DNA of 63,633 bases, the filler included, from Chrysochromulina tobinii (Eukaryota): assembly GCA_001275005.1 (NCBI GenBank). It is 6 parts of 6 records of this genome, joined end to end, with 100 filler letters (N's around TTAATTAATTAA, not from the genome) between each part and the next. Parts side by side here need not be neighbours in the genome. Positions count along the whole stretch, not along the records: positions 41,438 to 54,053 come from JWZX01001067.1; 5 more parts are not named here. One strand, 5' to 3'. The notes beneath the pieces are model-generated. The model was not told the origin of the DNA. It did not search any database and saw only the letters and a program-made list of their open reading frames with translations. The translations under genes were made by a program, and so were the position numbers. Below are positions 866 through 58,197 of the stretch, in pieces. Numbering within the stretch: the stretch's first letter is position 1; every line of letters begins with the position of its first letter.

Positions 866-1412
866 CTCGCAGCCTGTCATGTCTGTTCCGCTTACGCCGC
901 CGCCGCCTCCGCGCCGCCGCCCATCAAATGAAGTGATGCAGATCCCCGCGTCGCCATCTTCGGAATCTCCGGAATCTCCGGAATCTCCGGCGCCCGTCAC
1001 GGCGCCCCCACCGCCCTCGACACTCTCCCAACGGCTCGACAGCCTCGAAGGTGGCGCTGGGGGCATGGAAGAACGCGGCGCGGGCAGCGGCGGCGGTGGC
1101 GCGGCGGGCACGGCTGGCTGCGGCGCGGCGGTGGAGACCAGTGCGGCTGCGCCGCAAACGAGTGCTGAGGAGGCGCCATCACGAGAGCCCGGCACCACGC
1201 CCGCAGCGCCGGAAGCACCGAGCGAGGCGCTGTCTTGGGCGCTGGGCGTCAGGTCCGTCTCAGTGGTGGAGGCGGACGCCACTGCGGCGAGCGATGGCGT
1301 TGGCGGCAGCGGAGGAGAAAGCGGTGGTGACGGTGCTGATGGTGGGGATGGCGGCGGCCGTAGGAGCGGCAGCACGGCGGCTGATGGCGACTCCGTCTGG
1401 TCGGACGCCTGA
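1..1412 (+). CDS. 5'-partial hypothetical protein (Ala/Glu-rich coiled coil, Pro-rich, internal repeats)
   Basis: Open frame of 444+ aa that appears to run in from the window edge. EAAAKAKAK coiled-coil, a WT...HFESGG motif, SEAI repeats and three LSQRLDSLE repeats. Confidence 0.55.
297..420 (+). repeat. 12-bp-unit tandem repeat (CTCGGAGGCTAT) encoding SEAI
   Basis: Repeated ctcggaggctat / ctcggtgtctac units seen directly. Confidence 0.9.
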
Positions 1413-1498
1413 TGACGCCTGATGACGCCTGATGACGCCTGATGACGCCTGATGACGCCTGATGATAGCCTGATGATAGCCTGATGACGCCTGATGAC
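1404..1498. repeat. 10-bp tandem repeat (GATGACGCCT)n, two units GATGATAGCCT
   Basis: About 9 tandem copies; they supply the TGA of the upstream ORF. Confidence 0.9.
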
Positions 1499-2379
1499 GG
1501 CCGAGGGACGTGCGTGAGCAATCGTGAGGATACGTGCCGTGCCGGTTGTGAACAAGCTATGAACGAGGTTGATGTCTTGGTAGGGTTCGTCGGCGAGCGG
1601 TGAGTGGGGGCTGGTCTTGAGTGAAGGGCTTGGCGGCACAGGGGCGAGGGCATCGACGGCTGCGACACACCGAGGCCCAGGGGATGTGCGGCGTCCGTCG
1701 ATGGTCCTTGGTGATTGTCAATGTGTATTCTGGGAGGGCGGGGGCCACCAGGCGGGGAGGGACGGTGTTATTTTACAGAGAATCTCCGAGCGCCCGGCCG
1801 CCAGGCTCGTGCGCCAGAGCTGGCTAAACTAGACACGGCTGAGGTGAGGACCGGGCGTTTCCGGTTCTCGCGGTTTCCGGCTAAAAACCTAAAACGCTCT
1901 ACATGATGCATGACATGATGTCCAGAGCCGCAGCCCCGACCCGCGCTCTGGAGACTGGACTGTCACTAGACGTCATAATATGTACCTCACAAAGGTTCGA
2001 GCCGGCCGCATGGCCGGCCGCGAGTGCGGCGGCGAGAGAGGCCCAAGGGAGGAATTGTCATGGGAATTGTGCCAACTCTCGACTGCACACCTGACACCAC
2101 GCGTCATTTTGACGATGATGCGCACACATCCCGATGCCACATCGATCGTATGACACATCGCTGGACACATGGGTTACATCATACATATGATTCTTGTATC
2201 GTCTTGCATCTCTGTGAAATATGTCTGAGAGGGAAGAAGCTCAAGCTTTACGGCTTTACTAAGGGATCTACTACCTTAGTATCACAATGATAGAATTGAC
2301 TGCCATCTTGATCTGCCACACTTATCAGGATATCAATTTCCACATTCCACTGTTGAGGTTGATTCGGCAATTTGGCACA

Positions 2380-11132: not shown

Positions 11133-12522
11133 CTAGACGACAATCCCGCGCCGGCCCACATCGGCGTGCCAGCGCTCGAACCGTTCGGCCAGCCGCGTGC
11201 GCGCGCGCTCGAGCGTCGTCTCGAGCGCAACGCCGGCCACCGGCTCGAGCCGCATATCGACCGGCGTGTAGCCGCGGTACTCGCCCCCGGTCGAGAGCTC
11301 GAGTGGCCCATACTCGACCGTTGCGCTCAGGCGCGTGTCACGGGCCGAGATTGACGAACGTTCACGAGCATCCCAGACGATCTCCCACCATTCGTAGAAG
11401 CGCTCGGCCTGATGAGTGAGGCAATCAGGTGCACTCAGACCACTCTCAGAGGTCATCAAGTGCAATCAGGTGCACTCAGACCACTCTCAGAGGTCATCAA
11501 GTGCAATCAGGTGCACTCAGACGCACTCAGACGCACTTAGAACTCATCATCAGACGCACTCGGGGAGGCCCTCAGAGCTCTTCAACGTACCGCTTGAGCG
11601 ACCGCCGCGTGCTCGACGTCGGCGACCTGCGGCGACTGCGCCGTACCGATGCGAGCATGCACGTGGTCAACGGCGGGCGCGATCGTGCTCGTGAGCAGGC
11701 GGTGCTCTTCGGCGCTGTCGAGGAGCCGCTCGCACTTGACTACCCAGTGCGAGAAGTCGGACGTCAGGCGGAGCGATGGCACTTTGGCGAGCAGGCGCGC
11801 CGTCGCAAACGGGCAGCAGAGATACCTGACGAGGGACCCAATCAGAAGTCATCAAGTGACAATCAAGTGTGCAATCACATGCAATCAGCAGAGATACCTG
11901 ACTACCTGACGAGGGACCCAATCAGAAGTCATCAAGTGTACAATCAAGTGTGCAATCACATGCAATCAGCAGAGATATACCTGACGAGGGACCCAATCAG
12001 AAGTCATCAAGTGTACAATCAAGTGTGCAATCACATGCAATCAGCAGATATATACCGGCCGCGGTGCGTCTCGTGCGACACGGCAGGCAGCACGTCGAGG
12101 GCGCGCACGTCCGCGACTGCTCGCTCGAAGTACTCGAGCGCCTCGCTCTCGCTCCATGCATCGCTGCCACTGTGGGCGTTCACACGGATCAACGGCGAGG
12201 AGCCCTGCGTCGACGAGGAGAGCTCGGCGATCTGGCGCAGCTGTGCCAGCAATGCGTCGCCGTGGCTCGCCACAGTCCTCGCCGCGTCAAATGGTCCCTC
12301 GTAGTTGGTCCACGAGCTGTATGCTGAAAGGATGAAACTCATGCCCTCGGATTGCGCCGCAGCCAGGCACTCGCGACGCTCCTCGTAGGTGCCGCCGATG
12401 TCGTCGAGGCTGGCCTCGACGCCGTGCCAACCGCTCGTGCGGAGCGCGGCCATCGTGCGGCAACGGTCACCCGCGCGCAAGTTGGCCAGGCCCCACGCCG
12501 AGCGGAGCTGCAGCAGCCGCAT
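11133..12522 (-). CDS. Xylose-isomerase-like TIM-barrel (sugar phosphate isomerase/epimerase family); exons 12522-12056, 11825-11591, 11408-11133
   Basis: NAHSGSD, HETHRGR|YL, LTSDFSHW, HVHARIG, VEYGP motifs join in frame after removing two GT-AG introns. Confidence 0.8.
11409..11590 (-). other. Repeat-rich GT-AG intron ending in CTGATTGCCTCACTCATCAG
   Basis: GTACGT donor; splicing joins VAQA|AERFY. Confidence 0.8.
11826..12055 (-). other. Intron made of three tandem GT..AG units
   Basis: Units 11826-11897, 11906-11980 and 11981-12055 are near-identical. Confidence 0.8.
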
Positions 12523-12625: not shown

Positions 12626-14350
12626 TGAATGGCAGGATCTTCACAAGCTTGCTAGAAATGCGGCGAGTGCTGACTCCGTATGAGGCGAGCGAGGAGCTGC
12701 TGCTGCAGCAGAAGCCCGCCAAACGCGTGGCGCGCTGCGCGCCGAGCAATGCGCAGTGGTATGCGTTCGCCAACCTGCTCAAGACGATGATCGGCAGCGG
12801 GCTGCTCACGCTTCCGTGGGCGACTGCCCAATTCGGCCTGGTCCCATCGCTGCTCGGGCTGCTCTACCTGGCTTACCTGTCGCAGGCGGCGATCCGGCTG
12901 ACGGTGCGTTGCGTCGCCTTCTCGCCCCTCGAGCGCAAGACGCTCGTGGACGAGCTGCGCCACACGGGTAGCCTGCACAGCTCGCGGCGCCAGTCGCGCG
13001 CGACAGAGGCGTCGCGCGCGACGGACGACGAGGGGAGGCGCTCGCGCGTCTCCTTCCTTGCAGACGCGCTTCGTGACAAGCCCCGCGCCACAGTCGTCAA
13101 CGACGGGCACGGCGCCGGCTCGTGGCAGATCATCTCGACCCAGGCGTTTGGTGAGCCGGCGCGCGTGTTCACGATCGTGCTGCTGATGGCGGCGCAGGCG
13201 GGCGCGAGCGTGTCGTACTTTGACTTCGTGACGGCCGCGCTCGGTACCTACCTCGGCACGCCGCGCCTTGTCAACATCATCTCGGTCTGGGCGGTGCTGT
13301 GCGCGCTCTCACTGCTCAAGCAGCTCAAGAGCGTCGCGTGGCTTTCGGCGGCGGGGCTGCTGACTTACCTCTTCGTGCTGGCGCTGTTGGGTTACTTTGG
13401 TGCCGAGCAGATGGTCAGCGAGGGCGTGCTGCCGGCCTACCAACCGTCCGCCCTCGCCAAGCCTGCCGGGCTAGGCGCGTGGTTCGGACCGGCCATCTTT
13501 GCCTTCGAAGGGATGGGAACGGCCCTCTCGATTTATGAGGCGATGGAGGATGCGGACCCGCGCCCCTTCTTTTCTGTCGTCTCGTCGACATACCTGATCA
13601 GCTACGTGCTCTATGGAGGCGTGGGCGCGTTTGGGTACTTGGCGTGGCAGGGGGGCGTGTGCCCTGTCATCATCGACTGCTTCCCAACGTACAACACCAC
13701 CCCGGGCGCTGTGAACTCGGTCAACGCGGACCTGGCGATGGCGGCGCACGTGGCCCTCTCTATCATCCTCGGCCTCTCGTTTGTGTTGCAGGTGCACGTG
13801 TTGCCTCTGATTGCCTCAGAGAGGATTCCCTCTGATACCTTCTGATACCTTCTGATACCTTCTGATTGCCTCAGAAGGGGAGTACCGGCCTCTCGTTTGT
13901 GTTGCAGATGGCCATCAGAGGGCCATCAGAGGGCCATCAGAGCACACTCGCTGCTTGCCTAAGATTGCAACGCTGATGGCCCTCTCCATCAACCTTCGTC
14001 TCCTCCCCTGCTGCATGCAGATGACGCCCGTGTACCATGTGATCGAGGATCTTCTCCACCGGCGCAACACCGGCGTGCTACCGCACAGCTTATGGCCGTT
14101 GACACGCGCGCTCGTCGTCGGTGTGGTCGCCCTCGTCGGAGCCCTAGTTCCCGATATGGAAACGATGGTGAGCCTCACCGGTTCGATCGCGTTCTCAGCG
14201 ATCGGCTTCATCCTCCCTGGGGTCTTCTTTCTGCGCCTCCAGCCTGCAGCAGGCCCTCCCTCCTGGTCCGCTCAGCTCCCTAGGGAGGGGACGGCAGGGC
14301 TCCCCTCCCCCACTGGTCACCCCACTAGTCACCCCACTGGTCACCCGAGC

Positions 14351-21263: not shown

Positions 21264-22480
21264 TCACAGCGTGTACTCGAGGTTTGCGCGTGAAGGGGCC
21301 TCGCTAATTGCCTCGCTAATCGGCCGGAGCCCATCAGAGCTCGCGAAGGCAGCTTCCGAGTCGTCATCTGGCGCATCATACCTGATGAGGGACGCAATCA
21401 GATGCAATCAGATGCAATCAGATGCAATCAGATGCAATCAGATGCAATCGAGTCGTCATCTGGCGCATCATCATACCGATCGCGCTGCCGGCTGCCGAAG
21501 CGTAGGCACAGGCATCCACGCCTCTTTGGTGGCGGCGGCATCGGAGGCAGCACGCCCAGCTGCCCGTTGAAGCGCGCGCAGCTGACCAGCCCGCGCCCGT
21601 CGACGCCCACCAGCTGAAAGAGGTGGTCGACCTGGGATTGCTCGAGAGGACGCTTGAGCAGCAGGGAGGACATCATCAGCCGGCGGAGTACCTCCACTCG
21701 AGCATGGGCAGGTGCCTCCTCCGCCTCGAGCAGCCCAAAGGCGGCCTTGACCTCATCGGTCGTGACGATCCCGAAATCCTCGGGCGGGCCGAGCCAGCCC
21801 ACGCAGCGCGGCGGGTCCGCGTGATAGACGCGCGCATTGGTCGGGCAGCCGTCGGCGGCACTCGTGGGCATGATCATGCCGGTCGCGCGCAGCCGCTGCA
21901 GCTGGCGAAGGGCCGCTGCGCACCGTTCCGTTCGAATCAGATGCTCGAGTGCCTGTAACTCCTGTGTGGGGAGCACTACAACTCCCGCGCTATTCCAATA
22001 GGATCCACCAGCATGCGCGACGTCGTGGGCGGCGCCGCTGAACGAGGCGGCGGCGCCACTAGCGATGCCAAAGTCAAGGGCGACACCAGCGCCGCCCTCG
22101 CCGCCGGCGCCGCCATCGTCATCGTCGCCGCCGCCGCCGCGGTCGCCACCGGCCGCGCTGGTAGCGAGGGCGTGCTCGGCGTCGGGAGAGCTGAGCCAAG
22201 GTTGGAGCACGCGGCGGTTGGAGGCGGTGGCAGCGGCGGTCGGGGGCGAGGGCGGCGGCGAGGGCGGCTTTGTGGCCTGAGCCATCAGCGGCGTCAGTTG
22301 CAGACCTTCGCCGTGAATCTCCTCGCCACCTCCGCCGCCACCGCCGCCGCTGCTGCTGCTGCTGCCGCCTTCCACAGGTGCGACCACAGGTGCGATGCTG
22401 CCGAGTGAGATGCCAGCCCGGTCGGTGGGCGCCGTCGCACTCTCCGATCGCTGCTGCTGCTGCTGCTGCTGCATCTTCTG

Positions 22481-37655: not shown

Positions 37656-40405
37656 ATGGCACGATCAACTTCTTGGTTGATGCGTCTGACCTTCCTCGCT
37701 ATCTCACTGGATGCCTTTCAGGCGAATCCTCCGCCGACGTCGCCGCCTCCACCATCACTATCGCCACCTCCACCATCGCCTCCTCCACCGTCACCATCGC
37801 CGCCTCCACCGTCACCACCATCGCTGCCACCTCCTTCACCACCACCGCCATCACCGCCATCACCGCCGTTGCCACCGCCACTGCCTCCGCCGCCGTCGCC
37901 TCCGCCTTCGCCACCGCCACTGCCACCACCGCCGTCGCCGCCGCCGTCGCCTCCGCCCTGGCCACCGCCGTCGCCTCCGCCTCCGTCGCCACCGCCACCT
38001 TCGCCGCCACCTCCCTCGCCACCTCCACTGCCACCACTACCAAGTCCACCACCGCCCTCGCCGCCACCGCCTTCGCCTCCACCATCGCCACCACTGCCGT
38101 CGCCGCCGCCGTCGCCACCGCCATCTCCACCGCCATCTCCACCACCGCCGTCGCCTCCGCCATCGCCTCCGCTGTTGCCGCCTCCGCCATCGCCTCCAAC
38201 ACCATCCTCTCCGCCGTCTCCACCGCCGTCTCCACCGCCATCGCCACCTCCTTCACAGCCTCCACCATCGCCTCCGCCGTTGCCGCTTCCGCCATCGCCT
38301 CTGCAGCCATCTCCATCACCCTCTCCACCACCAACACCACCACCAACACCACCACCATCTCCACCGCCTTCGGCGCTTCCGCCATCGCCTCCGCCGTTGC
38401 CGCCTCCGCCATTGCCTCCACCGCCATCCCCACCAACGTCTCAACCGCCTTCACCATCGCCATCCCCACCGCCTTCATCGCATCCGCCGTCGCCTCCGCT
38501 GTTGCCGCCTCCGCCATCGCCTCCACCGCCATCCTCTCCGCCGTCTCCACCGCCGTCTCCACCGCCGACACCACCACCATCTCCGCCGCCTTCATAGCCT
38601 CCACAATCACATCCGCCGCCGCTTCCGCCATTGCCTCCGACGCCGTCGTCCCCACCGCCATCTCCACCGCCGTCTCCACCACCAACTCCACCGCCTTCGG
38701 CGCTTCCGCCATCGCCTCCGCCAATGCCGCCTCCGCCATCGCCTCCATCGCCATCCTCAACGCCGTCTCCACCGCCTTCACCACCGCCATCGCCACCTCC
38801 TTCACAGCCTTCGCCATCGCATCCGCCGTTGCCGCTGCCGCCATCGCCTCTCCAGCAATCTCCATCACCGTCTCCACCACCATCACCACCACCAACTCCG
38901 CCGCCTTCATAGCCTCCACCATCGCCTCCGCCGTTGCCGCTTCCGCCATTGCCACCGACGCCGCCGTCCCCACCGACGTCTCCACCGCCGTCTCCACCAC
39001 CATCTCCACCGCCTCCGCCATCGCCTCAACCGCCATCCCCACCGCCGCCGCCATCGCTTCAACCGCCATCCCCACCGCCGTCTCCACCACCATCACCACC
39101 GCCATCTCCACCGCCTTCATCGCCTCCGCCATCGCCTCCGCTGTTGCCGCCTCCGCCATCGCCTCCAACACCATCCTCTCCGCCGTCTCCACCGCCGTCT
39201 CCACCGCCATCGCCACCTCCTTCACAGCCTCCACCATCGCCTCCGCCGTTGCCGCTTCCGCCATCGCCTCTGCAGCCATCTCCATCACCCTCTCCACCAC
39301 CAACACCACCACCAACACCACCACCATCTCCACCGCCTTCGGCGCTTCCGCCATCGCCTCCGCCGTTGCCGCCTCCGCCATTGCCTCCACCGCCATCCCC
39401 ACCAACGTCTCAACCGCCTTCACCATCGCCATCCCCACCGCCTTCATCGCATCCGCCGTCGCCTCCGCTGTTGCCGCCTCCGCCATCGCCTCCACCGCCA
39501 TCCTCTCCGCCGTCTCCACCGCCGTCTCCACCGCCGACACCACCACCATCTCCGCCGCCTTCATAGCCTCCACAATCACATCCGCCGCCGCTTCCGCCAT
39601 TGCCTCCGACGCCGTCGTCCCCACCGCCATCTCCACCGCCGTCTCCACCACCAACTCCACCGCCTTCGGCGCTTCCGCCATCGCCTCCGCCAATGCCGCC
39701 TCCGCCATCGCCTCCATCGCCATCCTCAACGCCGTCTCCACCGCCTTCACCACCGCCATCGCCACCTCCTTCACAGCCTTCGCCATCACATCCGCCGTTG
39801 CCGCTTCCGCCATCGCCTCTGCAGCCATCTCCATCACCGTCTCCACCACCAACACCACCACCATCTCCACCACCATCTCCACCGCCTTCGGCGCTTCCGC
39901 CATCGCCTCCGCCGTTGCCGCCTCCGCCATCGCTTCAACCGCCATCCCCACCACCGTCTCCATTGCCTTCACCACTGCCATCTTCACCGCCTTCATCGCC
40001 TCCGCCATCGCCTCCGCTGTTGCCGCCTCCGCCATCACCTCCACCGCCATCCTCTCCGCCGTCTCCACCGCCGTCACCACCACCATCTCCAACGCCTTCA
40101 CAGCCTCCGCCATCGCCTCCGCCGTTGTCGCCTCCGCCACCGCCTCTGCCGCCATCTCCACCGCCGTCTCCACCGCCGTCTCCACCGCCTTCACCGCCTG
40201 CGCCATCGCCTCCGCTGTTGCCGCCTCCGCCATAGCCTCAACCGCCATCCCCATCACCGTCTCCACCGCCATCACCACCACCATCTCCACCGCCTTCATC
40301 GCATCCACTATCGCCTCCGCCGTCCAGGGCGGCGTCGAAGGCCACGTCATCGTCATGGGCGGAGTCAGGGGCAGCATTGAGGGCGGCATCAACGGCGGCA
40401 TTGAG
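37656..40405 (+). pseudogene. Extensin-like SPPP-repeat protein gene with four in-frame TAG codons
   Basis: Signal-like N-terminus, then about 2.6 kb of SPPP codons; TAG ends at 38597, 38912, 39566 and 40235; GTAAG donor at 40406. Confidence 0.5.
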
Positions 40406-40449
40406 GTAAGCTTAAATGCCTCTCACGAACTGTCACTCGGACATCGAAG

Positions 40450-40768
40450 TCCTCTATCTGACTGCCTCTCCCTGACTGCCTCTCTCGGAGTGCCTCTCTC
40501 GGAGTGCCTCTCTCGGAGTGCCTCTCTCGGAATGTCTCTCTCGGAGTGCCTCTCTCGGAGTGCCTCTCTCAGACTGCCTCTCTCAGAGTCCCTCTCTCGG
40601 AGTGCCTCTCTCAGAATGTCTCTCTCTGACTGCCTCTCTCGGAGTGTCTCTCTCAGAGTGCCTCTCTCAGAGTGCCTCTCTCAGAGTCCCTCTCTCTCCG
40701 AGTGTCTCTCTCTGAGTGCCTCTCTGAGTGTCTCTCGCTGAGTGCCTCTCTCTGAGGGTCTCTCTCAT
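40450..40768. repeat. Pyrimidine-rich (GTGCCTCTCTCGGA)n-type array, probably intronic
   Basis: Degenerate tandem units following a GTAAG donor. Confidence 0.85.
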
Positions 40769-43169: not shown

Positions 43170-43669
43170 CGACGGCGCCGCTCCTGCAGCGTGAGCGAGA
43201 AATCGGCGACCGACTTCGTCCCGACCGGTGGGAATCGACCGGGGGGCGGTCGGGTGTCCAGAGAGTGTCGGGATTCGCCGAGATGCGAGTCTCGTCGCGT
43301 TGCCCCGCGTTCAGATGTTATTTTTTGAGCGCTACCAGTCAATTTACGCATGGCGCGTCCGCGATCGGCAGGAAGTTCGGCACCCTCCGGTTTCCTCGGG
43401 GGTCGGGGCGGCCTCGGCGGCAACGACCGCCATTACGCCATTTGAAGCTGAACCCGTACCAACGTGCAACGAGCCCGGGGGCCGCGAGGCCTTTCTTGTT
43501 TACAGTCCTCTACTCGTCTCTCCTTCAGTTAATCAGTCTATACATGTATACGAGGAAGTCCGAGATTGTCCAATATAATGTTTCGTCAACTCCCCGGCGC
43601 CAGGCTCGCTTATAGAGATAGACGGCCCAGGGGCTCGGTTAGATCTCGGATGACCGACGACCGATCAGC

Positions 43670-46600
43670 TCATAGGGCGCGCCGGTAGGCGCTCTGCTGA
43701 TTGATGGCTTCGAGTCGCGCTTGGAGGATCGCGTTCGCCTCGTGCAAGCGCGCGGCGCAGGTAGGCGGCGCCATCGCGAGCGCGTCCGTCTCGTGCATCG
43801 TCTCGTGCATCGCCGGTGTGGCCTGAGGAGTGCCCCCCCCCTGAGGTGTGGCCGGGCGAGTGGGGGCGGGTGTGGGGGCGGGTGTGGGGGCGGGTGTGGA
43901 GGCGGGTGTGGCCGGGACTGGCGCTCGGTACGGCGCTCGCAGAGGAAGGAGGCTCCTGGAAGGCGCCGTCGTGGGCGCGAGCGGCGGTGGTGGAGGCATC
44001 GGAGCGAGCGATGCGGGCGAGGGGTTCGTCGGAGCGAGGGCCGAACCCAAAGCACGGGCGCCATCGTGGGCGCCATGAGCCCCCGAAGGAGTGGGATAGG
44101 GTGTGGGATAGGGTGTGGGATACGGTGTGGGAGCTGCGCCTGGGCCCACGATCACGCCTGCGCCTTCGCCGGCAGCGTCCCCGAGGGGAAGCGCGCCGCT
44201 CGGGACGGCGCCTCCAAAGCCAAGCGCGCCGCTCGGGACGGCGCCTCCAAAGCCAAGCACGCCGCTCGGGACGGCGCCTCCAAAGCCAAGCACGCCGCTC
44301 GGGACGGCGCCTCCAAAGCCAAGCACGCCGCTCGGGAACGTGCGCACGATCGCGTCTGCCCGTCGCGCCGCCGCGAGCGCTTGCTTGAGGGTGCTCATCT
44401 CATGCTGCAGCGTGTCGTTCGAATGAGAGAGGCGCTCGATCACCTGATGAGGGAGGCAATCAGCATGCACTCATCTCATGCTGCAGCGCGTGTCGTTCGA
44501 TTCAGAGTCGAATGAGAGGGGCGCTCGGTACGGCGCTCGGTCACCTCGTTCTTCTGCTCGAGCTGCGCGCCCAAGACGGCGCGATCGGCCTCGTGTGAGG
44601 CACAGCTCGCCTCAAGCCTCTCGTCCGCCTGGGCACTGACCATCGCGCACAACGCCTCGCCCTCCTCCATCAAGCGTCGGCGCTCCGCCTCCATCTCGGC
44701 GCGCATCTCGGCTTGCATGCTGATGGCCTCCTCCATCAAGCGACGGCGCTCCGCCTCCATCTCGGCGCGCCACCACGCCGCCTCATGCTCGCGCTGCGCG
44801 GTGAGCGGGAGCACGACCGCGTCGTGCCGGGCGGCCTGCCACGTCAGCCGCTGCTCAAGCTCGCGCGATCTCGTCTCACTCGCGCCCAGTTCAATTTGGA
44901 GCAGCGCAATCTCGAGCGCAGCTCGGCCGCTGAGCGCTGCGTCGCCGCTCTGCTCGCGCTCCTCCGCCGCCGCCGCCGCGATCGCCTCCATCTCGCGCAC
45001 CTGATGAGGGAGGCAATCAGCGTGCACTCAGAGCGCTGTGGTGGGCGGCGATCGCCTCCATCTCGCGCACCTGGAACGCCGCCGTCGCCAGCTGCTGCCG
45101 TAGGGCGCGGCTCACTTGCGCCGCCTCGGCCGCCTCCATACGCGCTGTGCTGAGCGCGGCCTCGGCCACGGCGCGCTCCGTCAGAGCGCTGTGGTGGGCG
45201 GCGCGCGCCTCTTCTTCCGCAGCGCGCACCTGATGAGGGAGGCAATCAGCATGCACTCAGCGAGGCACTCTGAGAATAGCCCGTCCACCCCGAGGCGCGC
45301 CCCACCTGAATGAGGGAGGCAATCAGCATGCACTCAGCGCACCTCCGCTTGCAGAGCATCAAGCATCGCCGCGCCATCACGCCGATGCGCAAGCTCCCTC
45401 GCCTCATCCTCGCGTCGACGGCCCTCGTCGGCCACGCGCTGTACCGAGCGCTCCATTGCTCGCTCATGCCTCTCCTGCTGCAGCGCGAGCTCCGCCGCGC
45501 CCGCCTCGGCGTTGGCCGCGCCCGCCTCCACGCGCATCGCCTCCACAGCGGCCTCGGCGACGCGCACACGTCCCTCGAGAGCCCCCCGCGCCTCGGCCGC
45601 CTCCTGATGAGGGAGGTCATCAGCATGCAATCAGACTCAATTAGGCTGATGGGGTGAAGCTCCTGATGAGGGAGGCCATCAGCAGGCACTCAGCACACGA
45701 CCCTCGAGAGTCCCCCGCGCCTCGGCCGCCTCAGAGCAGGCACTCAGAGGCACTCGGAGGCACTCAGTGGGCACTCAGTGGGCACTTAGAGTGGGCACTC
45801 AGTGGGCACTTAGTGGGCACTCCGAGGCCCTCCGAGGCACTCAGTGGCGATCCCCAGAGAGTGGGCTCCTTGAGCGCCGTACTGAGCGCCTCGCGCGGCA
45901 AACAATGGCAACCTCAATCGCAATCCATCGCAATCCATCGCAATCCATCGCAATCCATCGCAACCCATCGCAATCCAGCGCACCTGGAGCGCCGTACTGA
46001 GCTCGGCCTTCGAGCTGCCCATCTGCGCCTGGGTCGCCTCGAGCTGCTGCAGCGCCTGCGCCAGCTGCGCCTGCGCGCGAGCTTGGGAGCTCAGTACGGC
46101 GCGAGCTTGGGAGCGAGGTCATCAATAGGTCATCAATAGGTCATCAATAGGTCATCAATAGGTCATCAAGAGGTCATTAACGAGACTCACCTGCGCGCGA
46201 GCTTGGGAGCGTGCTGCCTTGTCGCTCGCGCCGACGAGCCTCAATCGCTCCGCCTCCGCCTCGGCCGCCGCCTCCGCCGCCGCCTTCTCGGCCTCGGCCA
46301 GCCGCCGCTTGAGCCCCTCGCTCGCCTTCTCGGCCGCCTTCTTGCTCTGTCGTGCCTCCGCGAGACCGCTCGTCAAGAGGCAATTAACGAGACTCATCAA
46401 GAGGTCATCAAGAGGCAATTAACGAGACTCATCAAGAGGTCATCAAGAGGCAATTAACGAGACTCACCTGTCGTGCCTCCGCGAGACCGCTCGTCAAGAG
46501 GCAATTAACGAGACTCATCAAGAGGTCATCAAGAGGCAATTAACGAGACTCACCTGTCGTGCCTCCGCGAGACCGCTCGCCGCAGCGCCCTCCGCCGCAC

Positions 46601-48458
46601 GCTGTCGCGCCAGCGCCGCTTCGAGCGCCCGATCCAACGCTTGCGCACGAGCGCCCTCCGCCGCCGTCGCCGCCGTCGCCTCGGCGAGCGCCGTCTCGAG
46701 AGCCTGCACTTGCGCCTGCGCACGCGCCGTCTCGAGCGCATGTACCCGCGCCGTCTCGAGCGCATGTACACGCGCCGTCTCGAGTGCGCCCGAGACGGCG
46801 CTCTCAGCCTCGGCGATCGCCGCTGCCCAAGCGCACCCTTCTGCCGCCGCGCGCGCCGCCACCTCCGCCTGCGCCCGCGCGCTCAGTTGCATTTGGTCTC
46901 GGGCTTCGGCGACGGCCCCCGCACACGCATGCAGCGCGGCGCGCACCTGATGAGGGGGGCAGTCAGCATGCACTCAGCGAATGCAGCGCGGTTGCGCACC
47001 TGGCAGGCAGGCAGGCAGGCAGACAGCAGCTAGAGGCCATATGAAGAGGGCAGGCGGGTGGATGCCAGGCAACTCGCAACCAAAGGTCCGGCGGGTAGAT
47101 GTCCGTAGGTATACGTAGGTAGTGTAGGTAGCGGCCCCTCAGTGGCCATGGGCCGCAACCGCGCATGCATTCGCTGAGTGCATGCTGATTGCCCCCCTCA
47201 TCAGGTAGCGGCCCCTCAGTGGCCATGGGCGAGGCAGGCGATTGGGTGAGGCGCTCAAAAGGCCTGTGAGAGCGCCGTACTGAGCGCGCACCGTCCACCT
47301 GGCGGCACGCGCGCGCTGTGATCGCTGCAGCCGAAGCACGGCGCGCTCCTCTGCCTGCGCCGCCGCGACCGCCGCCTGCACCGCCCCAGCGAGCCGCGCC
47401 GCCACGAGCGAGGGCAGCGCAGCGGCGTGCTGCTGCTCACACGTCAGCTTGGCCGCGAGCACGGCCGCATCGAGCTCAAGCTTGGCGCGCGCCGCCATCG
47501 CCTGCAGCGACGCCTCGCGCTCGAGGTCCTTATCTCGCACGATCTCGCGCTCGAGCTTGCGGAGTGACTCGTCCCACTTGCGCGCGAGCGCCGCGTGGAG
47601 CGCCGCGTCGGGCACCTGCATGCACGGAGCGAGGCCATCGGTCGCCATCAGCCGCACTCACAGGCAATCAGGCGCACTCAGGCGCACTCAGTGGCGTGAG
47701 CGTGTGAGCGCCGTGTCGGGCACCGAGGGCGTGCGACGCCAGCTGCTGCCCTCAGCCGTGGCCGCCGCCGCCGCCGACAACGACGACGACGAGCAGTCGA
47801 ACGGCGCCGCGAGCGCCGCTGCCGTCGCCGCCGCCTCCCACTCAGCCTCGACGAGGTCACGATGGGCGGAGAGGTTTCCATACGACTCCCGCAGCGACTC
47901 GATAGCGACGACCGAGCGTGAGCGCGCGACCTCTGCCTCGTCCAGAAGGGTGTGCGGCGGCGCGAACGAGGCCGCCCTCAGCCGCAAAATCTCCGCCTCG
48001 TCGCGCTCCGCCTCGTCGCGAAGGTGCCTCAGCTGCAGCTCGCGGTCAGTGAGCACCTGCTGCATGCCGCGCTGCAGGCCAACGAGGTGCGCGTGCGACG
48101 CCTCGAGCGCGGAGAGTTCACCGGCGAGCGCATGGCACGCGGCGGCGTGCTGAGGCTGCGGAAGCGGCAAGGCCGATGGGCCCATGCGCCTCTCCTCATC
48201 GGGCTCGCCGCTGTCGTCGTGGGTGCTGCCGAGCGCCACGATGACGCCGTTGCACTGCTCGACAAAGGCGCCGAGATCGGCCTCGGAAGGTGCACCGCAC
48301 ACGAGTGTTGGCGCAATCTCACACATGCCGTTGAGGTGCTCGACGAGGCGGCGAATGGCAGTCGGCGTCATCGAAGCTCGGGCCGGTAGGCGGCCGGGAT
48401 GCCGTGCGTCCTGGTTTTGAGGCTGATCGTGAGAAAGAAAAGGGTTCACACGAGTCAT
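43670..48458 (-). CDS. Large coiled-coil protein, about 8 introns (44444-44544, 45001-45070, 45230-45342, 45604-45983, 46071-46190, 46347-46553, 46947-~47298, 47616-47723)
   Basis: Successive Ala/Glu/Arg-rich minus-strand ORFs separated by GT-AG segments; start uncertain; phase at 47298 needs a 1-nt correction or a different donor. Confidence 0.65.
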
Positions 48459-49414
48459 TGGACTCTGCTGGCGTGAGGCATGCGCGGAGTGCTCGGCCCT
48501 TTTAACCCACTGCCACTGCGTGCTCATAGTGTCTTAGATACAGGTCAAGATACAGGCAACAGGTCTCATCCCCAACTACAGAGATCATGTTGGGACGAGC
48601 CCCGGCGGGTTGTCTTCAACTCTTCAACACAAATGAACGAATTCGCGAAATATGACATATGTACATACATCTCACATGTATGTGAACCCCGTGGGAATTT
48701 CGTTACATGTAGAGTACGATGAGGCGATATGACGCTAATCTAGATTGATAAAATATGATCAATGATAATTGCGTGATGCGCGGACTTAAGCGCGGACCCG
48801 CGGTTGCCGGTTCTGCTGGGTTGAACCTTGAAGTTTGTGTTTGAACCGCTAATGGCCTAATCTTGAAGATGATCAGGGCGGCGCAGCATACAGTCTACGT
48901 ACCATGAAGATACAAGTTTTGTGATTTCATCGACCCTCTATGTCGCACATGTGTGTAGTTCCCGGTGTACGTGACGCCTCGCTCGCCCCCATGAGCCATG
49001 TGCTATGAACCCGATCAAACACGCCTCGAGGCCTCGTGCCAGCACCCTCCACTCGGCTCCGCGGCGACGCCACGCCGGCCGCCGCGGCGCCGCCCCCCGC
49101 CCGAACCCCCGCTCTCGCCGGTCCTTCGTACACACAGAGAGACAGCTGACAACACACACACACACACTGTTCATCTACGGCCCTGCGCGCGCGGGGTACG
49201 AGGCGCCCGGCGCGGCGCGGGGGCCAGCTCGAGTGCAGCAGAGGACGGCAAGAGGCCCCGACGGTACCGACTCGATCTCGACTCGATCTCCGAGAGATGC
49301 GAGGGTTATGCTTCCAAAGGGAGCGCGCACAGCGCCGTAAAGAGCACTTGCATGCGAGGGTGCTGCTTCCAAAGGGAGCTCGCCACAGCCAACCAGCATC
49401 CGCCGCAAGCGCTA

Positions 49415-51678: not shown

Positions 51679-54053
51679 TGGGTATGGAGGTCGCTGCCAC
51701 CGCGACGCGGCCGCCCGCGTGTGGCTGCTGATGATGAGGCTCGTCTGCGGAGACCGTGCTCACGGACATGTTGCTGAGCCAGTTGTTGACGTCTTTGCGC
51801 CGCAGCTCGACTTGTCTACGCCTCGTCCACCAGCAGACCATCGCCAGGCAGCACAGCAGCCCAACAACCGCCGAGAGCACGCCGATGACGAGGATGGTGA
51901 TGGCGTCGCCATCGGCGCTGTTCAGCGCGCCCGGCGGCCGTTGCGGGGGCGGCGATGGCGAGTGCGAGGAAGGCGGCGGTGGCGGCAATGATGCGAGGTC
52001 CGCGACGGTGGGTGGCGTCACGATTGCAAGCACGGCGATCGAGATGCCGGTGACGCTCGCGAGCATGGCGGTCGCACTGCTCGCGCTGCTCGTCGCGCTG
52101 GCCATCGTCGACTGCACCGAGGCCGCCGCTGCCCTGGTCGTCTGGATGCTCACACCGACGACGACGCTGCCCGACGATAGAGTCAACTCCACCGCCGATG
52201 GGTCGACGCTCGCCCTCGCCGCGATTGCGCTCTTCATCTCGGTCCGCACGCTCGGGGTGAACGAGGAGACGTCGCCGGCGAGCTCGAGGGTGAATCTGAC
52301 CACGCTCATCGCCGGCGGCGAGGGCGGCGGCGAGGGCGAGGGTGGCGGCGGTGAGGGCGGCGGCGGCGAGGGCGAGGGTGGCGGCGGTGAGGGCGGCGGC
52401 GGCGGGCGGGGCAAAGGTCGAAGGAGGCGGCGGCGAGGGCGAGGGCGGTGGCGGCGAGGGCGGCGGCGGCGGCGGCAGGAAAGGCGAGGGCGGCGGCGGC
52501 GGGCTCGGATCGGGCGATGGCGGTGGTGGCGGTGGCCGCGAGGGTGGTGGAGGCGGTGATGGTTCGGGCGGCTGGGGGGAAGGTGGTGGCGGCGAGAATG
52601 GAGGTCGAGGAGGAGATGGCGGAAGCGAGGGGGAGGGCGGAGGCGGCGAGGGCGGAGGCGGGGATGGTGGCGGCGGCGAGGGCGGCGGTAGCGAAGGAGG
52701 GGGTGCCAAGCAAGTTGAGACTGTTCCTGAGAGGTCGGTGAGGCTCATTGCGTGTGAGCAGATGCTACCTCCTGAGACATAGACATTTTGCCCGACCCCA
52801 CCCGAAGCTGTGTTTGAGTGGATGCCGCTGGACACGAACGCGGCGACTGTGCTTGAGCCTGAGATAAAGACGCCACCTCCTTGGCGCGGGAAGCGCACGT
52901 CACCATTTCCAGCTTGATTGTTGGAAATGGTGACGTTGATGAAAGTGGTAGTGCCACCTTCAAGGCCGACTCCACCTCCAGCGTTGGAAGCCGCGTTGGA
53001 GAATATGGTGCACGATGAGCAAGTGACGTAACCACCACTGACCAAGACACCGCCGCCATTAGATGAGCATGAGTTGGAGTAGATGTTGGTCTCCGTGAAC
53101 GTCACGGCGCCACTAGAGATGGAGACGCCACCTCCCCTGCCATTGCCAGCTCCATTATTGCGAATGTTTACGTTTGTGAATGTGGTAGTGCCACCTCGAA
53201 TGCTGACTCCACCTCCATCATAATTCCAACCGGCTGAGTTGGAGTAGATGTTGGTCAGCGTGAACTGTACGGTGCCACCATGAATCAAGATGCCGCCGCC
53301 TTGATGCCATTCACCGCAACAATAATAGTTTTTGGGACCATTGAAGTGGATGTTGGACTGCATGAACTGCACGTTTCCGCTAGTGATACGGACGCCACCT
53401 CCCCCGGTTCCCTCATCAGCTCGATTGTTGTTAACATTCACGTTGGTGAATCGGGTCGTCCCACCTTGAATAAGGACTCCACCTCCCCCCTGATGGCCAG
53501 CCTGATTGCTATAAATATTCACGTTGGTGAATGTGGTAGTGCCACCTTGAATAAGGACTCCCCCTCCCCCTCCCCCTCCCCCTGAAGGGTCCCCATTCAG
53601 CCGGATATAGGACGGGTAATAAGACGCATCCCATGTCGCGAAGTAGCCCCCCGTAAGGTTGAGTCCGATGAGTTGCACGACGCCCGACGAGCCCGGGTTG
53701 ATGTTCAGCACACGGCGCTGTATCGAGTAGCTGGCTTGTGCGTTCAGGATGACCGAACCTACCACCGCCGCCTCGAGGATGACGCTCCTGGTGATGCTGA
53801 GCTCGGCGCTGAGGTAGTAAGTGCCGGGGGCTAGGACAATACGGCCGACGGAAGTGTTGGCAAGTGCATCGGTAAGGCTGGCGACGTCGCTTACCATAGG
53901 AGGCGGTGGCGGCGAGGGCGAGGGCGGCGGCGGCGATGGTGGCGGCGGTGGCGGCGGCGAAGGCGGCGGCGGCGATAACGGCGGCGGCGGTGAGGGCGAG
54001 GGCGGTGGCGGCGAGGGCGAGGGCGGCGGCTGTGAGGGGCAGAGGCAAAGGAG
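51242..54053 (-). CDS. Surface protein: pectin-lyase-like beta-helix (polymorphic membrane protein-like), SPPP linkers, SEA-like domain, TM; frameshift near 52410; 5'-truncated
   Basis: IVLAPGTY, repeated GGGVxI.GG..TFTNVNIYSN, VVRFTLELAGDV domain, TM ILVIGVLSAVVGLLCCLAMVCWW. Confidence 0.75.
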
Positions 54054-56143: not shown

Positions 56144-58197
56144 TCACGCAAAGACGCAATAGCCGTGCCGTTCCAAGATTTGCAGCACGGCAGCCACCGT
56201 CTTGAACCGCACCTTGAGCAGCGCACCATCCGGCCTCGCGCCCTCTGAATTCGCACCTCTCCATGCCTGCCTCGCGCTGAAGTTGCTGGGCGCCGTACGA
56301 AGCCATTCCATCAGGGGCACCAGCGCGACCGGCGTACACAACTCCAGACGTAGCAAAGAGCCAAGCTCCTCATGTCCGAAATGGGAGTGAACCACGAAGA
56401 TCGCGTCGCTCGCGCTGGCCGCCGCGCATGTGTCGACAAAGAGGTCGGACGCGCCGGTCAGTCTCTCGTGCCCACCGCAGCGCGTCGGCAAGAGCCGCCC
56501 GCCACCCTTTTCTTGCGAGCCCAAGCTCGCCTCTGCCCCGTCCTCGCCCTCCTCGTACCCACCGCCCCTCCCCATCCCCAGCCCACCTCCCTTCCCCCTC
56601 CTTACCCCTTCCCCCTTGTACTCACCTCCCTTCCCCTTGCCTGCGCCCTTGGCTTCCTTGCCTTCCTCCTCCTCTTCCTCCTCCTCCTCCTCCTCGTCCT
56701 CCTCCTCGTCCTCCTCCTCCTCCTCGTCGTCCTCGTCGTCGTCGTTCAAGGTTCCGGGCGCCGTCTCGGGCAGTCGTATCAGGACGGCGAGCGGGCTGCG
56801 TGCGAATCGCGTGCCTCGCGTGATGGTGGTAGGATGGGCCGTCCCATCGCTTGATAGGCCATCGGATAGGCCGATGGCCGATGACGGTGGTAGGCGCATT
56901 CGAACCGTTCGCGGCAGCCCCAAACCCTCGGGCAGCAGCAGCGCGGGCGAGAGGGCGTGCAGTTCAGCCTGAGCGAGGGACAATAGAGGACCGAGCTGCC
57001 GCCGCCCATCGCTCATCGAATGCATGCAGAGCGGCGCCCTCGCGTCGCCGTGGGCGAGCAGCCGTTGGCGTAGTGCGTCCACGATGAGGTCGGCCCAACA
57101 CGTGCCCATCAAACTGATGTTGATCGAGACGGGGTCAATCAGCATGCAATCAGCATGCAGTCAGCATGCAGTCAGCATGCAGTCAGCATGCAGTCAGCAT
57201 GCAATCAGCATGCAATCAGCTCGCCCACCTGATGTTGATCGAGACGGAGTCTTCGACGCATTGGACGCGGTGCCACATGCCCGCGGGCACGTAGAGAACC
57301 GAGCCGGGGCGCAGTGTCACCTCCTCCGCGTCGTCGAAGAAGCTGCTTGGTGGCGCTGCATCGAAGGGACCTCTCGCATGCTGCGCATGCACCTGCACTC
57401 GGACGCCATCGGGCGTGCCATCAGATGGGCACTCGGATGCCATCAGAGGTGCACTCAGATACGCAACCAGACGCCCCCATCAGAGGCCCTCAGCGGCGCG
57501 CGTGCACCTTGGCCTGTTGCTCGGCGGCGGTGCGCACGGCGTGCGTGCCGTGACCCCACTGCGGCGTGCAGCCTCGGACCGGCACGCGCACCGCCGAGGG
57601 CTTGAGCCGCCAGCGCTTCTCGCCGCTCAGCTGAAGCGTAAAGTTCTCCATGAAGTCAAAGTGCCACTCGGTCACGTGGCCGGCGCGCGACACGAAGGTC
57701 TCCACCTCGCTCCGCGGCGCGCCGTCGGCGTAGAGCGCGCCAAAGGAGAGGCCCACCTGCTGCGATAGCGCCGTCACCAGCAGCTCGGACAGCTCCTCGG
57801 GCGCGCGGAAGTAGAGCGAGCCGCCGGCTCGGTGGCAGGCGAGGGCTGCCTCGCGGTCGGCCGTCTTGATGCTCTGGTTGGCGCCACGCGCGCCGCCACC
57901 ACCGGCGAGGCCGCGTGCAAACCACACGTGCACCTCCTCGGATGGCGACTCGCGCAGCAGTCGTCGCACCGACAGCTTGTGCAACTGCTCACGCACGAGG
58001 GCATCGATCCGACCACGGCCGCCGTGGACGGCGAGGGCCTTCTGACGCCAGTGGCGCCGCAGGAAGAGAGCCGGCGTGAGCGGATGGCACAGCTGCGCGA
58101 GGAGAGGGCAACGCGCGCCCTCGGAGCTGCCGATTGCCGGGCACGCGCGTCGCGCCGCTCGGCTCGCGAGCCGCTTTCGCGTGACGAAGACACCCAT
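56144..58197 (-). CDS. JmjC/cupin 2-oxoglutarate oxygenase; introns 57393-57507 and 57114-57228
   Basis: [52 protein letters not shown]. Confidence 0.85.

What the first reader, a model, noticed from the sequence alone, without database searches (positions are those of the whole stretch)
44444..47206. Intron-building system: shared ~29-nt branch/acceptor cassette plus duplicated exon supplying the donor
Seen: on the minus strand GAGTGCATGCTGATTGCCTCCCTCATCAG or a close variant ends introns or intron sub-units at 44444, 45001, 45230, 45306, 45604, 45663 and 46947. Related ends occur in other genes on another assembly piece (21382, 11409, 11826). In several cases the 5' part of the intron is a copy of the start of the downstream exon. 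In 45001-45070 both intron and exon begin GTGCGCGAGATGGAGGCGATCGC. In 44444-44544 a degenerate ~50-nt exon copy joins the cassette at a TGAG microhomology. Known: introners are repeated introns, often TIR/TSD DNA transposons. Inference: these lack TIRs and have variable, long duplications, suggesting a distinct route in which a minimal acceptor cassette is inserted by template switching or repair and the duplicated GT creates a scarless intron.
Basis: partly seen in the sequence, partly recalled or inferred. Interest (0 to 1): 0.9.

Follow-up and report, generated by a model that had tools for sequence, protein, structure and literature searches.

The report
Introns that seed new introns
In a freshwater alga, many introns consist of a short copy of the neighbouring exon plus a piece shared with an intron of another gene, which suggests that new introns are likely built when a DNA break is patched with a copy of an existing intron's end, a route that published intron-making-transposon surveys of this genome did not record.

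Summary
Observation confirmed. The window is Chrysochromulina tobinii DNA. The 29-nt cassette ends introns or intron sub-units at the stated places and recurs in 49 gene clusters from metagenomes. At 40 of 86 terminal sites the intron starts with a 14-46-nt copy of the downstream exon; exons begin GT/GC at 75 of 86. Removal restores frames without a scar. One window intron is absent from 12 genomic-type ORFs of close relatives; another is polymorphic.

The 'minimal cassette' reading needs amending. Fillers are 26-148-nt, 3'-anchored copies of other genes' introns and carry donor-specific sequence. A mirror class (upstream exon supplies AG), antisense copies and in-frame exonised inserts exist, and some sites are older introns with a replaced acceptor.

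Best model: staggered-break repair that copies another intron's 3' end, likely from excised intron RNA (0.45); DNA template switching is the close rival (0.33). No RNA junction read was obtained and no enzyme was found. Introner surveys list zero families for this genome. The scan found the same footprint before on another piece of this genome (e1-2577349). New variant of a known kind; interest 0.75.

The parts
43670..48371 (-). Host gene G3, alanine-rich protein with no informative family hit, 9 exons; 1085-aa ORF after removing 8 introns, all phase 0
44444..44544 (-). Intron 8 (101 nt): degenerate ~50-nt copy of the downstream exon + cassette, TGAG overlap; polymorphic in a sister lineage
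44661..44770 (+). Antisense, in-frame (66 nt) exonised insert in exon 8: 44-nt direct repeat (44661-44704 / 44727-44770) around a 22-nt filler whose end plus 5 nt of the repeat matches 18 nt of a cassette variant
45001..45070 (-). Intron 7 (70 nt): exact 23-nt exon-start copy + piece from exon 7 + cassette; its 3' part recurs in two unrelated genes (L044 whole, L069 partial)
45181..45203 (-). Exon 7 stretch that is the source of the non-cassette filler of intron 7 (23-nt exact match)
45230..45342 (-). Intron 6 (113 nt, two cassette units); near-identical to the intron of unrelated gene L062; 36-nt allele in L072
45604..45983 (-). Intron 5 (380 nt): older intron whose acceptor was apparently replaced by a 40-nt exon-start copy + two cassettes (45663, 45604)
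46071..46190 (-). Intron 4, mirror class: 20-nt copy of the upstream exon end supplies AG
46347..46553 (-). Intron 3, mirror class: 26-nt copy of the upstream exon end supplies AG; unit re-duplicated
46947..47291 (-). Intron 2 (345 nt), ends in a cassette sub-unit; donor at 47291 restores the frame
47128..47229 (+). Inverted copy of the neighbouring cassette sub-unit (ends 47204 at CATCAG) between ~25-nt direct repeats starting 47128 and 47205, on the non-coding strand inside intron 2
47616..47723 (-). Intron 1 (108 nt): ~18-nt exon-start copy (9 exact) + 10-nt repeats, no cassette
11826..12055 (-). Intron A of the xylose-isomerase-like gene: three related units, 12-nt exact exon copy; absent in 12 genomic-type ORFs of close relatives
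11409..11590 (-). Intron B of the same gene: cassette-like end, no exon copy; shared with the relatives that lack intron A
21382..21476 (-). Intron with 25-nt exon-start copy + 10-nt repeats + cassette-like end
57114..57228 (-). Mirror-class intron: 19-nt upstream exon copy supplies AG; filler is repeated cassette 5' half
13792..14020 (+). Intron holding a 22-nt upstream exon copy and repeat filler in both orientations

Best explanation
These are predicted spliceosomal introns of Chrysochromulina, likely built when a staggered DNA break is repaired by copying in the 3' end of another intron, probably from its excised RNA, which leaves a 14-46-base duplication of the host exon on both sides. 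SHOWN: the architecture duplication-filler-duplication; fillers anchored at the acceptor end and variable at the 5' end; fillers carrying sequence specific to other genes; both orientations; presence/absence among relatives; scarless frames. INFERRED: a staggered break; a broken 3' end primes on the last 0-3 bases (or inside the repeats) of a linear intron RNA; reverse copying stops at a variable point and rejoins; when the duplicated stretch starts GT/GC and the filler ends AG, splicing removes exactly one duplicate plus the filler; selection keeps units of about 66-88 nt that splice. Each new intron is then a template for further ones, so the cassette is the lineage mark of a successful donor family, not a self-contained element. 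The same event next to an old acceptor extends that intron, and ordinary tandem slippage multiplies units. NOT SHOWN: the enzyme, the RNA template, splice junction reads. The wider claim (duplication + copied intron end builds introns, whatever the template) I put at about 0.8.
For: Exon-start copies at 34 of 62 sites vs 4 of 310 control pairs; 40 of 86 terminal sites, 14-46 nt, median 26; GT 65 and GC 10 of 86 after the AG. Donor-specific hitch-hikers between unrelated genes: window intron 7 with L044 (whole 70 nt) and L069 (3' part), intron 6 with L062 (113 nt), L058/L052, L068/L018, L042/L036; 19 of 125 sites share 50 nt or more with another gene. The intron-7 piece is coding sequence in exon 7 of the window gene, which gives a direction of copying. 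Twelve repeat-flanked copies that are antisense, or whose end is not the working acceptor of a duplicated-donor intron (picked by eye), all stop within about 5 nt of CATCAG and only 1 is followed by GT; I saw none that clearly runs into a donor's next exon. Scarless continuity: tRNA-binding domain 25|27 across a split codon, tRNA-synthetase 253|254, SAD1 474|475, no gap against 29 homologues at sites A and B. Intron A is absent from 12 of 15 listed cluster members, which read into intron B and lie on contigs up to 41 kb. 96-nt intron with a 19-nt repeat in L010, absent in L073.
Against: No RNA contig joint matched an intron among those listed, and RNA-run contigs of X1 cover intron sequence (retention or DNA in the library; 51 joints were not shown). 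No reverse transcriptase could be sought (no genome held). Local sources (exon 7 piece ~130 nt away; inverted copy ~230 nt from its twin) and the mirror class fit DNA switching at least as well. The exonised antisense insert at 44705-44726 ends inside the cassette, 8-13 nt short of AG, at a 5-nt overlap. 5' microhomology is weak: mean 2.2 nt in 15 cases vs 1.1 null, after I dropped 5 overlaps of 12-23 nt as lineage; donors were found for only 20 of 40. 46 of 86 sites have no clear exon copy. Introns 5, 6 and probably 7 are shared with a sister lineage, and intron 8 is present in some and absent in other sister alleles, so loss is as possible as gain there. The exact-seed end survey is noisy: 30 of 83 at -3..0, with a tail of positive offsets.
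Confidence: 0.45

Rival explanations
1. Same products, DNA template: at a staggered break the polymerase switches to another intron in the genome (near or far), copies part of it and returns by microhomology (synthesis-dependent or polymerase-theta-type end joining, recalled). Fixed ends then come mainly from selection for splicing.
For: Local and multi-step templates, including an exon piece inside intron 7; mirror and both-sides classes are common; internal end with a 5-nt overlap at 44705-44726; the antisense copy at 47204 landed at an AG-GT site; it needs no reverse transcriptase.
Against: Unselected copies still end at the acceptor and mostly lack following GT (12 cases by eye); no clear copy carries a donor's downstream exon; measured microhomology is small.
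Confidence: 0.33
2. A dedicated short non-autonomous retro-element (SINE-like introner) with one or a few master copies inserts with variable target-site duplications; the cassette is its 3' end. This is close to the reading of earlier finding e1-2577349.
For: Fixed 3' end, 5' truncation, variable duplication, both orientations; positions -21..-1 are 96-100% conserved over 49 genes, partly by ascertainment.
Against: Upstream of ~35 nt the fillers trace to many different host introns, not to one body; no poly(A) tail; no Rfam match; no longer element noticed in 126 loci; none in viral or prokaryote collections.
Confidence: 0.1
3. The introns are old; exon copies and cassettes are later remodelling by slippage across splice sites and ectopic gene conversion, and the absences are precise losses between direct repeats.
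For: Intron 5 acceptor replacement; introns 5 and 6 shared with a lineage at 84-90% identity; re-duplicated units (L064, L009); intron 8 polymorphic and 3'-most.
Against: Does not explain GT/GC at 75 of 86 exon starts, repeat-flanked inserts with an empty allele (L010/L073; L021, L087 vs L019, L028, L077), intron A absent in 12 ORFs, or exonised antisense inserts.
Confidence: 0.1
4. Assembly artefact (collapsed or chimeric repeats), or the cassette is merely this species' extended branch/acceptor signal.
For: Repeats of 29-113 nt can confuse assemblers; the 36-nt allele of intron 6 (L072) and single-contig L044 could be artefacts.
Against: The same structures recur in independent assemblies; the repeats at the presence/absence sites are 12 and 19 nt, shorter than usual k-mers (k-mer sizes recalled); many introns end without the cassette.
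Confidence: 0.02

Closest known systems
Introners with one carried and one TSD-recruited splice site (Symbiodinium; Polarella glacialis classes 4/5 and 6/8/10, bioRxiv 10.1101/2020.10.14.339549; Fig. 2B of 10.1101/2022.06.06.494994)
   Same: Insert carries the 3' splice site, duplicated target supplies the 5' site, mRNA unchanged, strong phase-0 tendency (8 of 8 introns of G3).
   Different: Those have fixed 3-8-nt TSDs and family-wide bodies (Symbiodinium with TIRs). Here duplications are 14-46 nt and variable, there is no TIR, and fillers are truncated pieces of different host introns.
Introners of marine Chrysochromulina sp. MAGs (Fig. 2C of 10.1101/2022.06.06.494994)
   Same: Same genus name, no TIRs.
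   Different: 4-bp TSD, carries the 5' site and co-opts the 3' site. C. tobinii GCA_001275005.1 itself is scored 0 introner families (PMC12130899 supplement file 7).
Intron gain by staggered double-strand-break repair in Daphnia pulex (PMC4202315)
   Same: Direct repeat of an exon end at the opposite end of a new intron; secondary rounds lengthen introns; polymorphic.
   Different: Repeats are 4-12 bp and the source of most inserts is unknown there; here repeats are much longer and the source is traceably another intron.
Tandem genomic duplication of AGGT and intron transposition / reverse-transcription template switching (reviewed in PMC3443670)
   Same: Duplicated exon provides splice sites; intron sequence is shared between loci.
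   Different: Pure duplication has no foreign filler. Reverse-splicing transposition copies whole introns in sense orientation without long repeats; here most copies are partial, repeat-flanked and can be antisense.
Target-primed reverse transcription of non-LTR elements (signatures recalled, not from a call)
   Same: Fixed 3' end, 5' truncation, variable duplication, either orientation.
   Different: No poly(A) tail, no single element body, no partner enzyme identified.

Membership tests
TIR DNA-transposon introner | Terminal inverted repeats | tested here: not met
   0 inverted pairs in 3 loci, only palindromes in 2 window introns; one 22-nt 73% pair in intron 7, fold z -1.8
TIR DNA-transposon introner | Fixed short TSD (3-8 nt) | tested here: not met
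   14-46 nt at 40 of 86 sites (duplications under ~12 nt fall below the score cut)
Introner (any) | End-to-end similarity among family members | tested here: not met
   median shared 3' length 35 nt; whole-intron identity seen in 2 gene pairs only
Introner (any) | Repeated sequence creating introns at many loci | tested here: met
   (49 clusters)
Non-LTR / SINE-type retro-insertion | Fixed 3' end with variable 5' truncation | tested here: met
   one exception at 44705-44726
Non-LTR / SINE-type retro-insertion | Variable-length target duplication, both orientations | tested here: met
Non-LTR / SINE-type retro-insertion | Poly(A) or simple-repeat 3' tail; tRNA/snRNA-derived head | tested here: not met
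   Ends in CATCAG; no Rfam match in 43500-48500
Non-LTR / SINE-type retro-insertion | Autonomous reverse-transcriptase partner | not testable with these tools
   No whole genome held
Tandem genomic duplication (AGGT) | Both splice sites from the duplicate, no foreign filler | tested here: not met
   Filler of 26-148 nt in all 40 cases; some duplicates do hold AG-GT inside
Daphnia-type staggered-break gain | Exon-end direct repeat at the opposite intron end, with an empty allele | tested here: met
Reverse-splicing intron transposition | Whole-intron, sense-only copies without long repeats | tested here: not met
   Partial and antisense copies; L044 alone fits
Spliceosomal intron | Junction seen in RNA | tested here: inconclusive
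   One search lists no matching joint; indirect support from P0066 crossing site B, two annotated 325-aa models and domain continuity

The most novel reading that the evidence does not exclude
Ordinary host introns act as their own mobile templates: excised intron RNA is copied into staggered DNA breaks, each product becomes a new donor, and hundreds or more of this alga's introns form a traceable genealogy with no transposon body at all. This would be a chain-reaction route of intron gain that end-to-end introner screens cannot see.
Probability: 0.4. Interest if true: 0.92.

Novelty: new variant of a known kind. Interest (0 to 1): 0.75.

Why it matters
The source of most newly gained introns is an open question: break-repair models lack a sequence source, and introner models need a transposon. 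Here donor and recipient introns can be paired, events are polymorphic in wild populations, and the species is cultured and sequenced, so RNA versus DNA templating is directly testable. It also shows a blind spot: a survey of 8,716 genomes scored this genome as having no introner family, so 3'-anchored, long-duplication gains may be under-counted elsewhere.

Tried and rejected
No whole genome is held, so there is no genome-wide count and no search for a reverse transcriptase. Read laying on 43600-48000 (4 of 18 runs): listed joints were repeat-to-repeat; summed depth peaks at cassette bins but is no copy number; parts without cover are no evidence. Small-share runs are not used as evidence. 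Cassette absent from viral contigs and prokaryote genome contigs. No Rfam match; no stable fold of the cassette (z 0.23). Hammerhead and box C/D resemblance of the reverse strand (motifs recalled) rejected by eye: no GAAA after CTGATGA. Helitron rejected: long duplications, no hairpin. My first intron-2 donor (47298) gave a frameshift and was corrected to 47291. The L042/L055 88-nt difference is a re-duplicated unit of an existing intron, not presence/absence. Microhomology values of 12-23 nt were rejected as donor-recipient lineage. Protein searches for full-length spliced G3 found none (crowded, weak evidence). Pfam gave no usable two-sided continuity for 12 of 14 piece pairs. A recalled report of 10-11-bp repeats in Emiliania introns was not found in the library.
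Full report
Origin. The window is six pieces joined by N spacers. The spliced gene at 12522-11130 gives 325 aa; its cluster holds a 325-aa Chrysochromulina tobinii protein (KOO34867.1) on a 24,415-base contig, the length of the first piece, and a C. parva model. I take the window as C. tobinii. No whole genome was held.

Observation. The cassette occurs 8 times at up to 3 mismatches and never in 100 shuffles; one hit (47176-47204) is on the opposite strand. Removing eight GT-AG segments from the gene at 48371-43670 gives one 1085-aa frame, all phase 0. Of 14 window introns that I modelled, 9 hold an exact copy of at least 12 nt of an adjacent exon end, against 2 of 182 non-adjacent pairs. Some copy the downstream exon start (45001, 44444, 21382, 11826), others the upstream exon end (46347, 46071, 57114, and the plus-strand intron at 13792).

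Genome-wide recurrence. An exact scan of metagenomes returned 127 stretches from 42 of 64 parts, about 190 estimated; 126 were stored and fall into 49 gene clusters. An anchored copy of the exon start (score 10 or more) lay upstream at 34 of 62 sites, against 4 of 310 cross-gene controls. With a looser core and only the last unit of each chain, 40 of 86 sites in 51 genes had a copy of 14-46 nt (median 26), and the exon began GT at 65 and GC at 10 of 86. In 33 single-unit cases (7 of 40 with fillers over 70 nt dropped), copy and filler lengths were anti-correlated (rho -0.46, p 0.007), summing to a median of 76 nt, 10-90% range 66-88. I read this as selection on intron size (inference). The sample is ascertained on an exact cassette, so it gives no frequencies for the genome.

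Are they introns? Indirect evidence says yes. Domains continue without a gap across the segment in a tRNA-binding domain and a class I tRNA synthetase (2 of 14 piece pairs were informative) and in SAD1 (donor placed four codons later than first guessed). Sites A and B align without a gap at the junction to 29 homologues. P0066 crosses site B uninterrupted. Direct RNA evidence is lacking: none of the joints listed matches an intron, 51 were not shown, and contigs of RNA run X1 cover intron sequence.

Are they new? Some are. Of 15 listed members (of 23) of the 325-aa protein's cluster, 12 cross site A without the intron yet run into intron B, on contigs up to 41 kb, so they are genomic; 2 are annotated models and 1 starts after site A. 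Alleles with intron A would give shorter ORFs that may cluster elsewhere, so this is no frequency. A 96-nt GT-AG insert with a 19-nt repeat is in L010 and not in L073; a 63-nt in-frame antisense insert with a ~27-nt repeat is in L021 and L087 and not in L019, L028, L077. Others are older. In a sister lineage (84-90% identical) 9 of 14 proteins have the read-through length at intron 8 (4 read, all cross it; contigs to 10 kb), 2 begin with the translated cassette and 3 begin at the exon start, so intron 8 is polymorphic there and cannot be polarised. All 13 proteins read for exon 6 (of 29 listed) stop at the start of intron 6, so that intron is shared; 5 of them begin with a translation resembling the upstream exon end, 4 with a shorter form of it and 2 with the cassette, so the window's intron 5 appears to have had its acceptor replaced.

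What is inserted. Not a minimal cassette: fillers are 26-148 nt. 50 of 125 sites share 40 nt or more, and 19 share 50 or more, of 3'-anchored sequence with another gene (pairs count twice). The shared parts include gene-specific sequence. A stretch that codes in exon 7 of the window gene sits in intron 7 and, with the cassette, in the introns of two unrelated genes: whole in L044, and behind that gene's own 21-nt exon copy in L069. Intron 6 matches the 113-nt intron of L062, whose second unit resembles L062's own exon start. L068/L018, L058/L052 and L042/L036 are further pairs. Introns are therefore copied from introns.

Which template. Three antisense cassette copies with flanking repeats (window 47204, L019, L051) and nine sense copies whose end is not the working acceptor of a duplicated-donor intron (L010, L014 twice, L042, L045, L051, L054, L061, L092; by eye) stop within about 5 nt of CATCAG, and only one is followed by GT. 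An end fixed without selection and without downstream homology fits a template that physically ends at the 3' splice site, the excised intron. Against this: a fourth antisense insert, in exon 8 (44-nt repeat, 22-nt filler), ends inside the cassette at a 5-nt overlap; sources can be local and exonic; the mirror class has a fixed GT start and a variable end; 5' microhomology is small (mean 2.2 vs 1.1); and the automated end survey is noisy (30 of 83 at -3..0). I give RNA templating 0.45 and DNA switching 0.33. The signatures of target-primed reverse transcription and of polymerase-theta repair are recalled, not taken from a call.

Comparison with print. Gozashti et al. 2022 (10.1101/2022.06.06.494994, passages; supplement of PMC9860276, passages of one file that was cut when stored): Chrysochromulina MAG introners have 4-bp TSDs and carry the 5' site; C. 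tobinii appears once, in the list of screened genomes. Gozashti et al. 2025 (PMC12130899, passages; supplements, files 13-14 not searched): 0 families for C. tobinii; non-LTR introners are about 5% of classified examples. Roy et al. (10.1101/2020.10.14.339549, parts 1-2 of 4): fixed TSDs of 3-8 nt. Li et al. (PMC4202315, passages): exon-end repeats of 4-12 bp, sources mostly unknown. Yenerall and Zhou (PMC3443670, passages), a 2024 review (PMC11282704, passages) and the genome paper (PMC4580454, passages) do not describe this pattern in what I saw. Ten searches found no description; the library lacks most subscription papers, and bioRxiv supplements were not seen.

Verdict. Real and widespread; a new variant that joins break-repair gain with intron-to-intron copying. 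It works like a non-LTR-type or break-repair insertion and is not a member of the TIR introner families. Interest 0.75.

Noticed in passing
window 44661-44770: Antisense cassette fragment fixed in coding sequence as a 22-aa duplication-insertion; the sister lineage has the same residues (AISMH), so it predates the split.
   Followed up: partly
window 40407-40760 (+): Minisatellite of ~14-nt units of the same repeat family, ending in a cassette-like CTCTCATCGG; probably inside an intron of the proline-rich gene.
   Followed up: no
window 46553-46347 and 46190-46071: Two neighbouring mirror-class introns share the same ~17-nt donor start, a sign of local copying of the 5' end.
   Followed up: partly
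window 47291-47275 vs 46000-45984: The start of intron 2 holds a 16-nt copy of the exon end before intron 5, 1.3 kb away.
   Followed up: partly
L009:1501-1925; L064 intron 7; L052; L069: Cassette units are re-duplicated in tandem (up to 7 copies), with copy number differing between alleles.
   Followed up: partly
L072 (allele of window 45230-45342): Intron 6 is only 36 nt here; either a very short intron or an assembly collapse.
   Followed up: no
L037, L047, L014, L060: Several modelled introns would use GC donors taken from the duplicated exon.
   Followed up: no
window 56900-57800 (-): JmjC-like gene (label recalled from motifs, untested) with two repeat-filled introns, 57507-57393 and 57228-57114.
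   Followed up: partly
window 37711-40380 and 51816-53897: Long proline-rich (SPPP-type) ORFs with internal duplications; the second follows a repeat domain of GGG-motif units.
   Followed up: no
window 1409-1499 (-): Array of 10-nt units ending TCATCAG, the same seven bases as the cassette end; context not examined.
   Followed up: no
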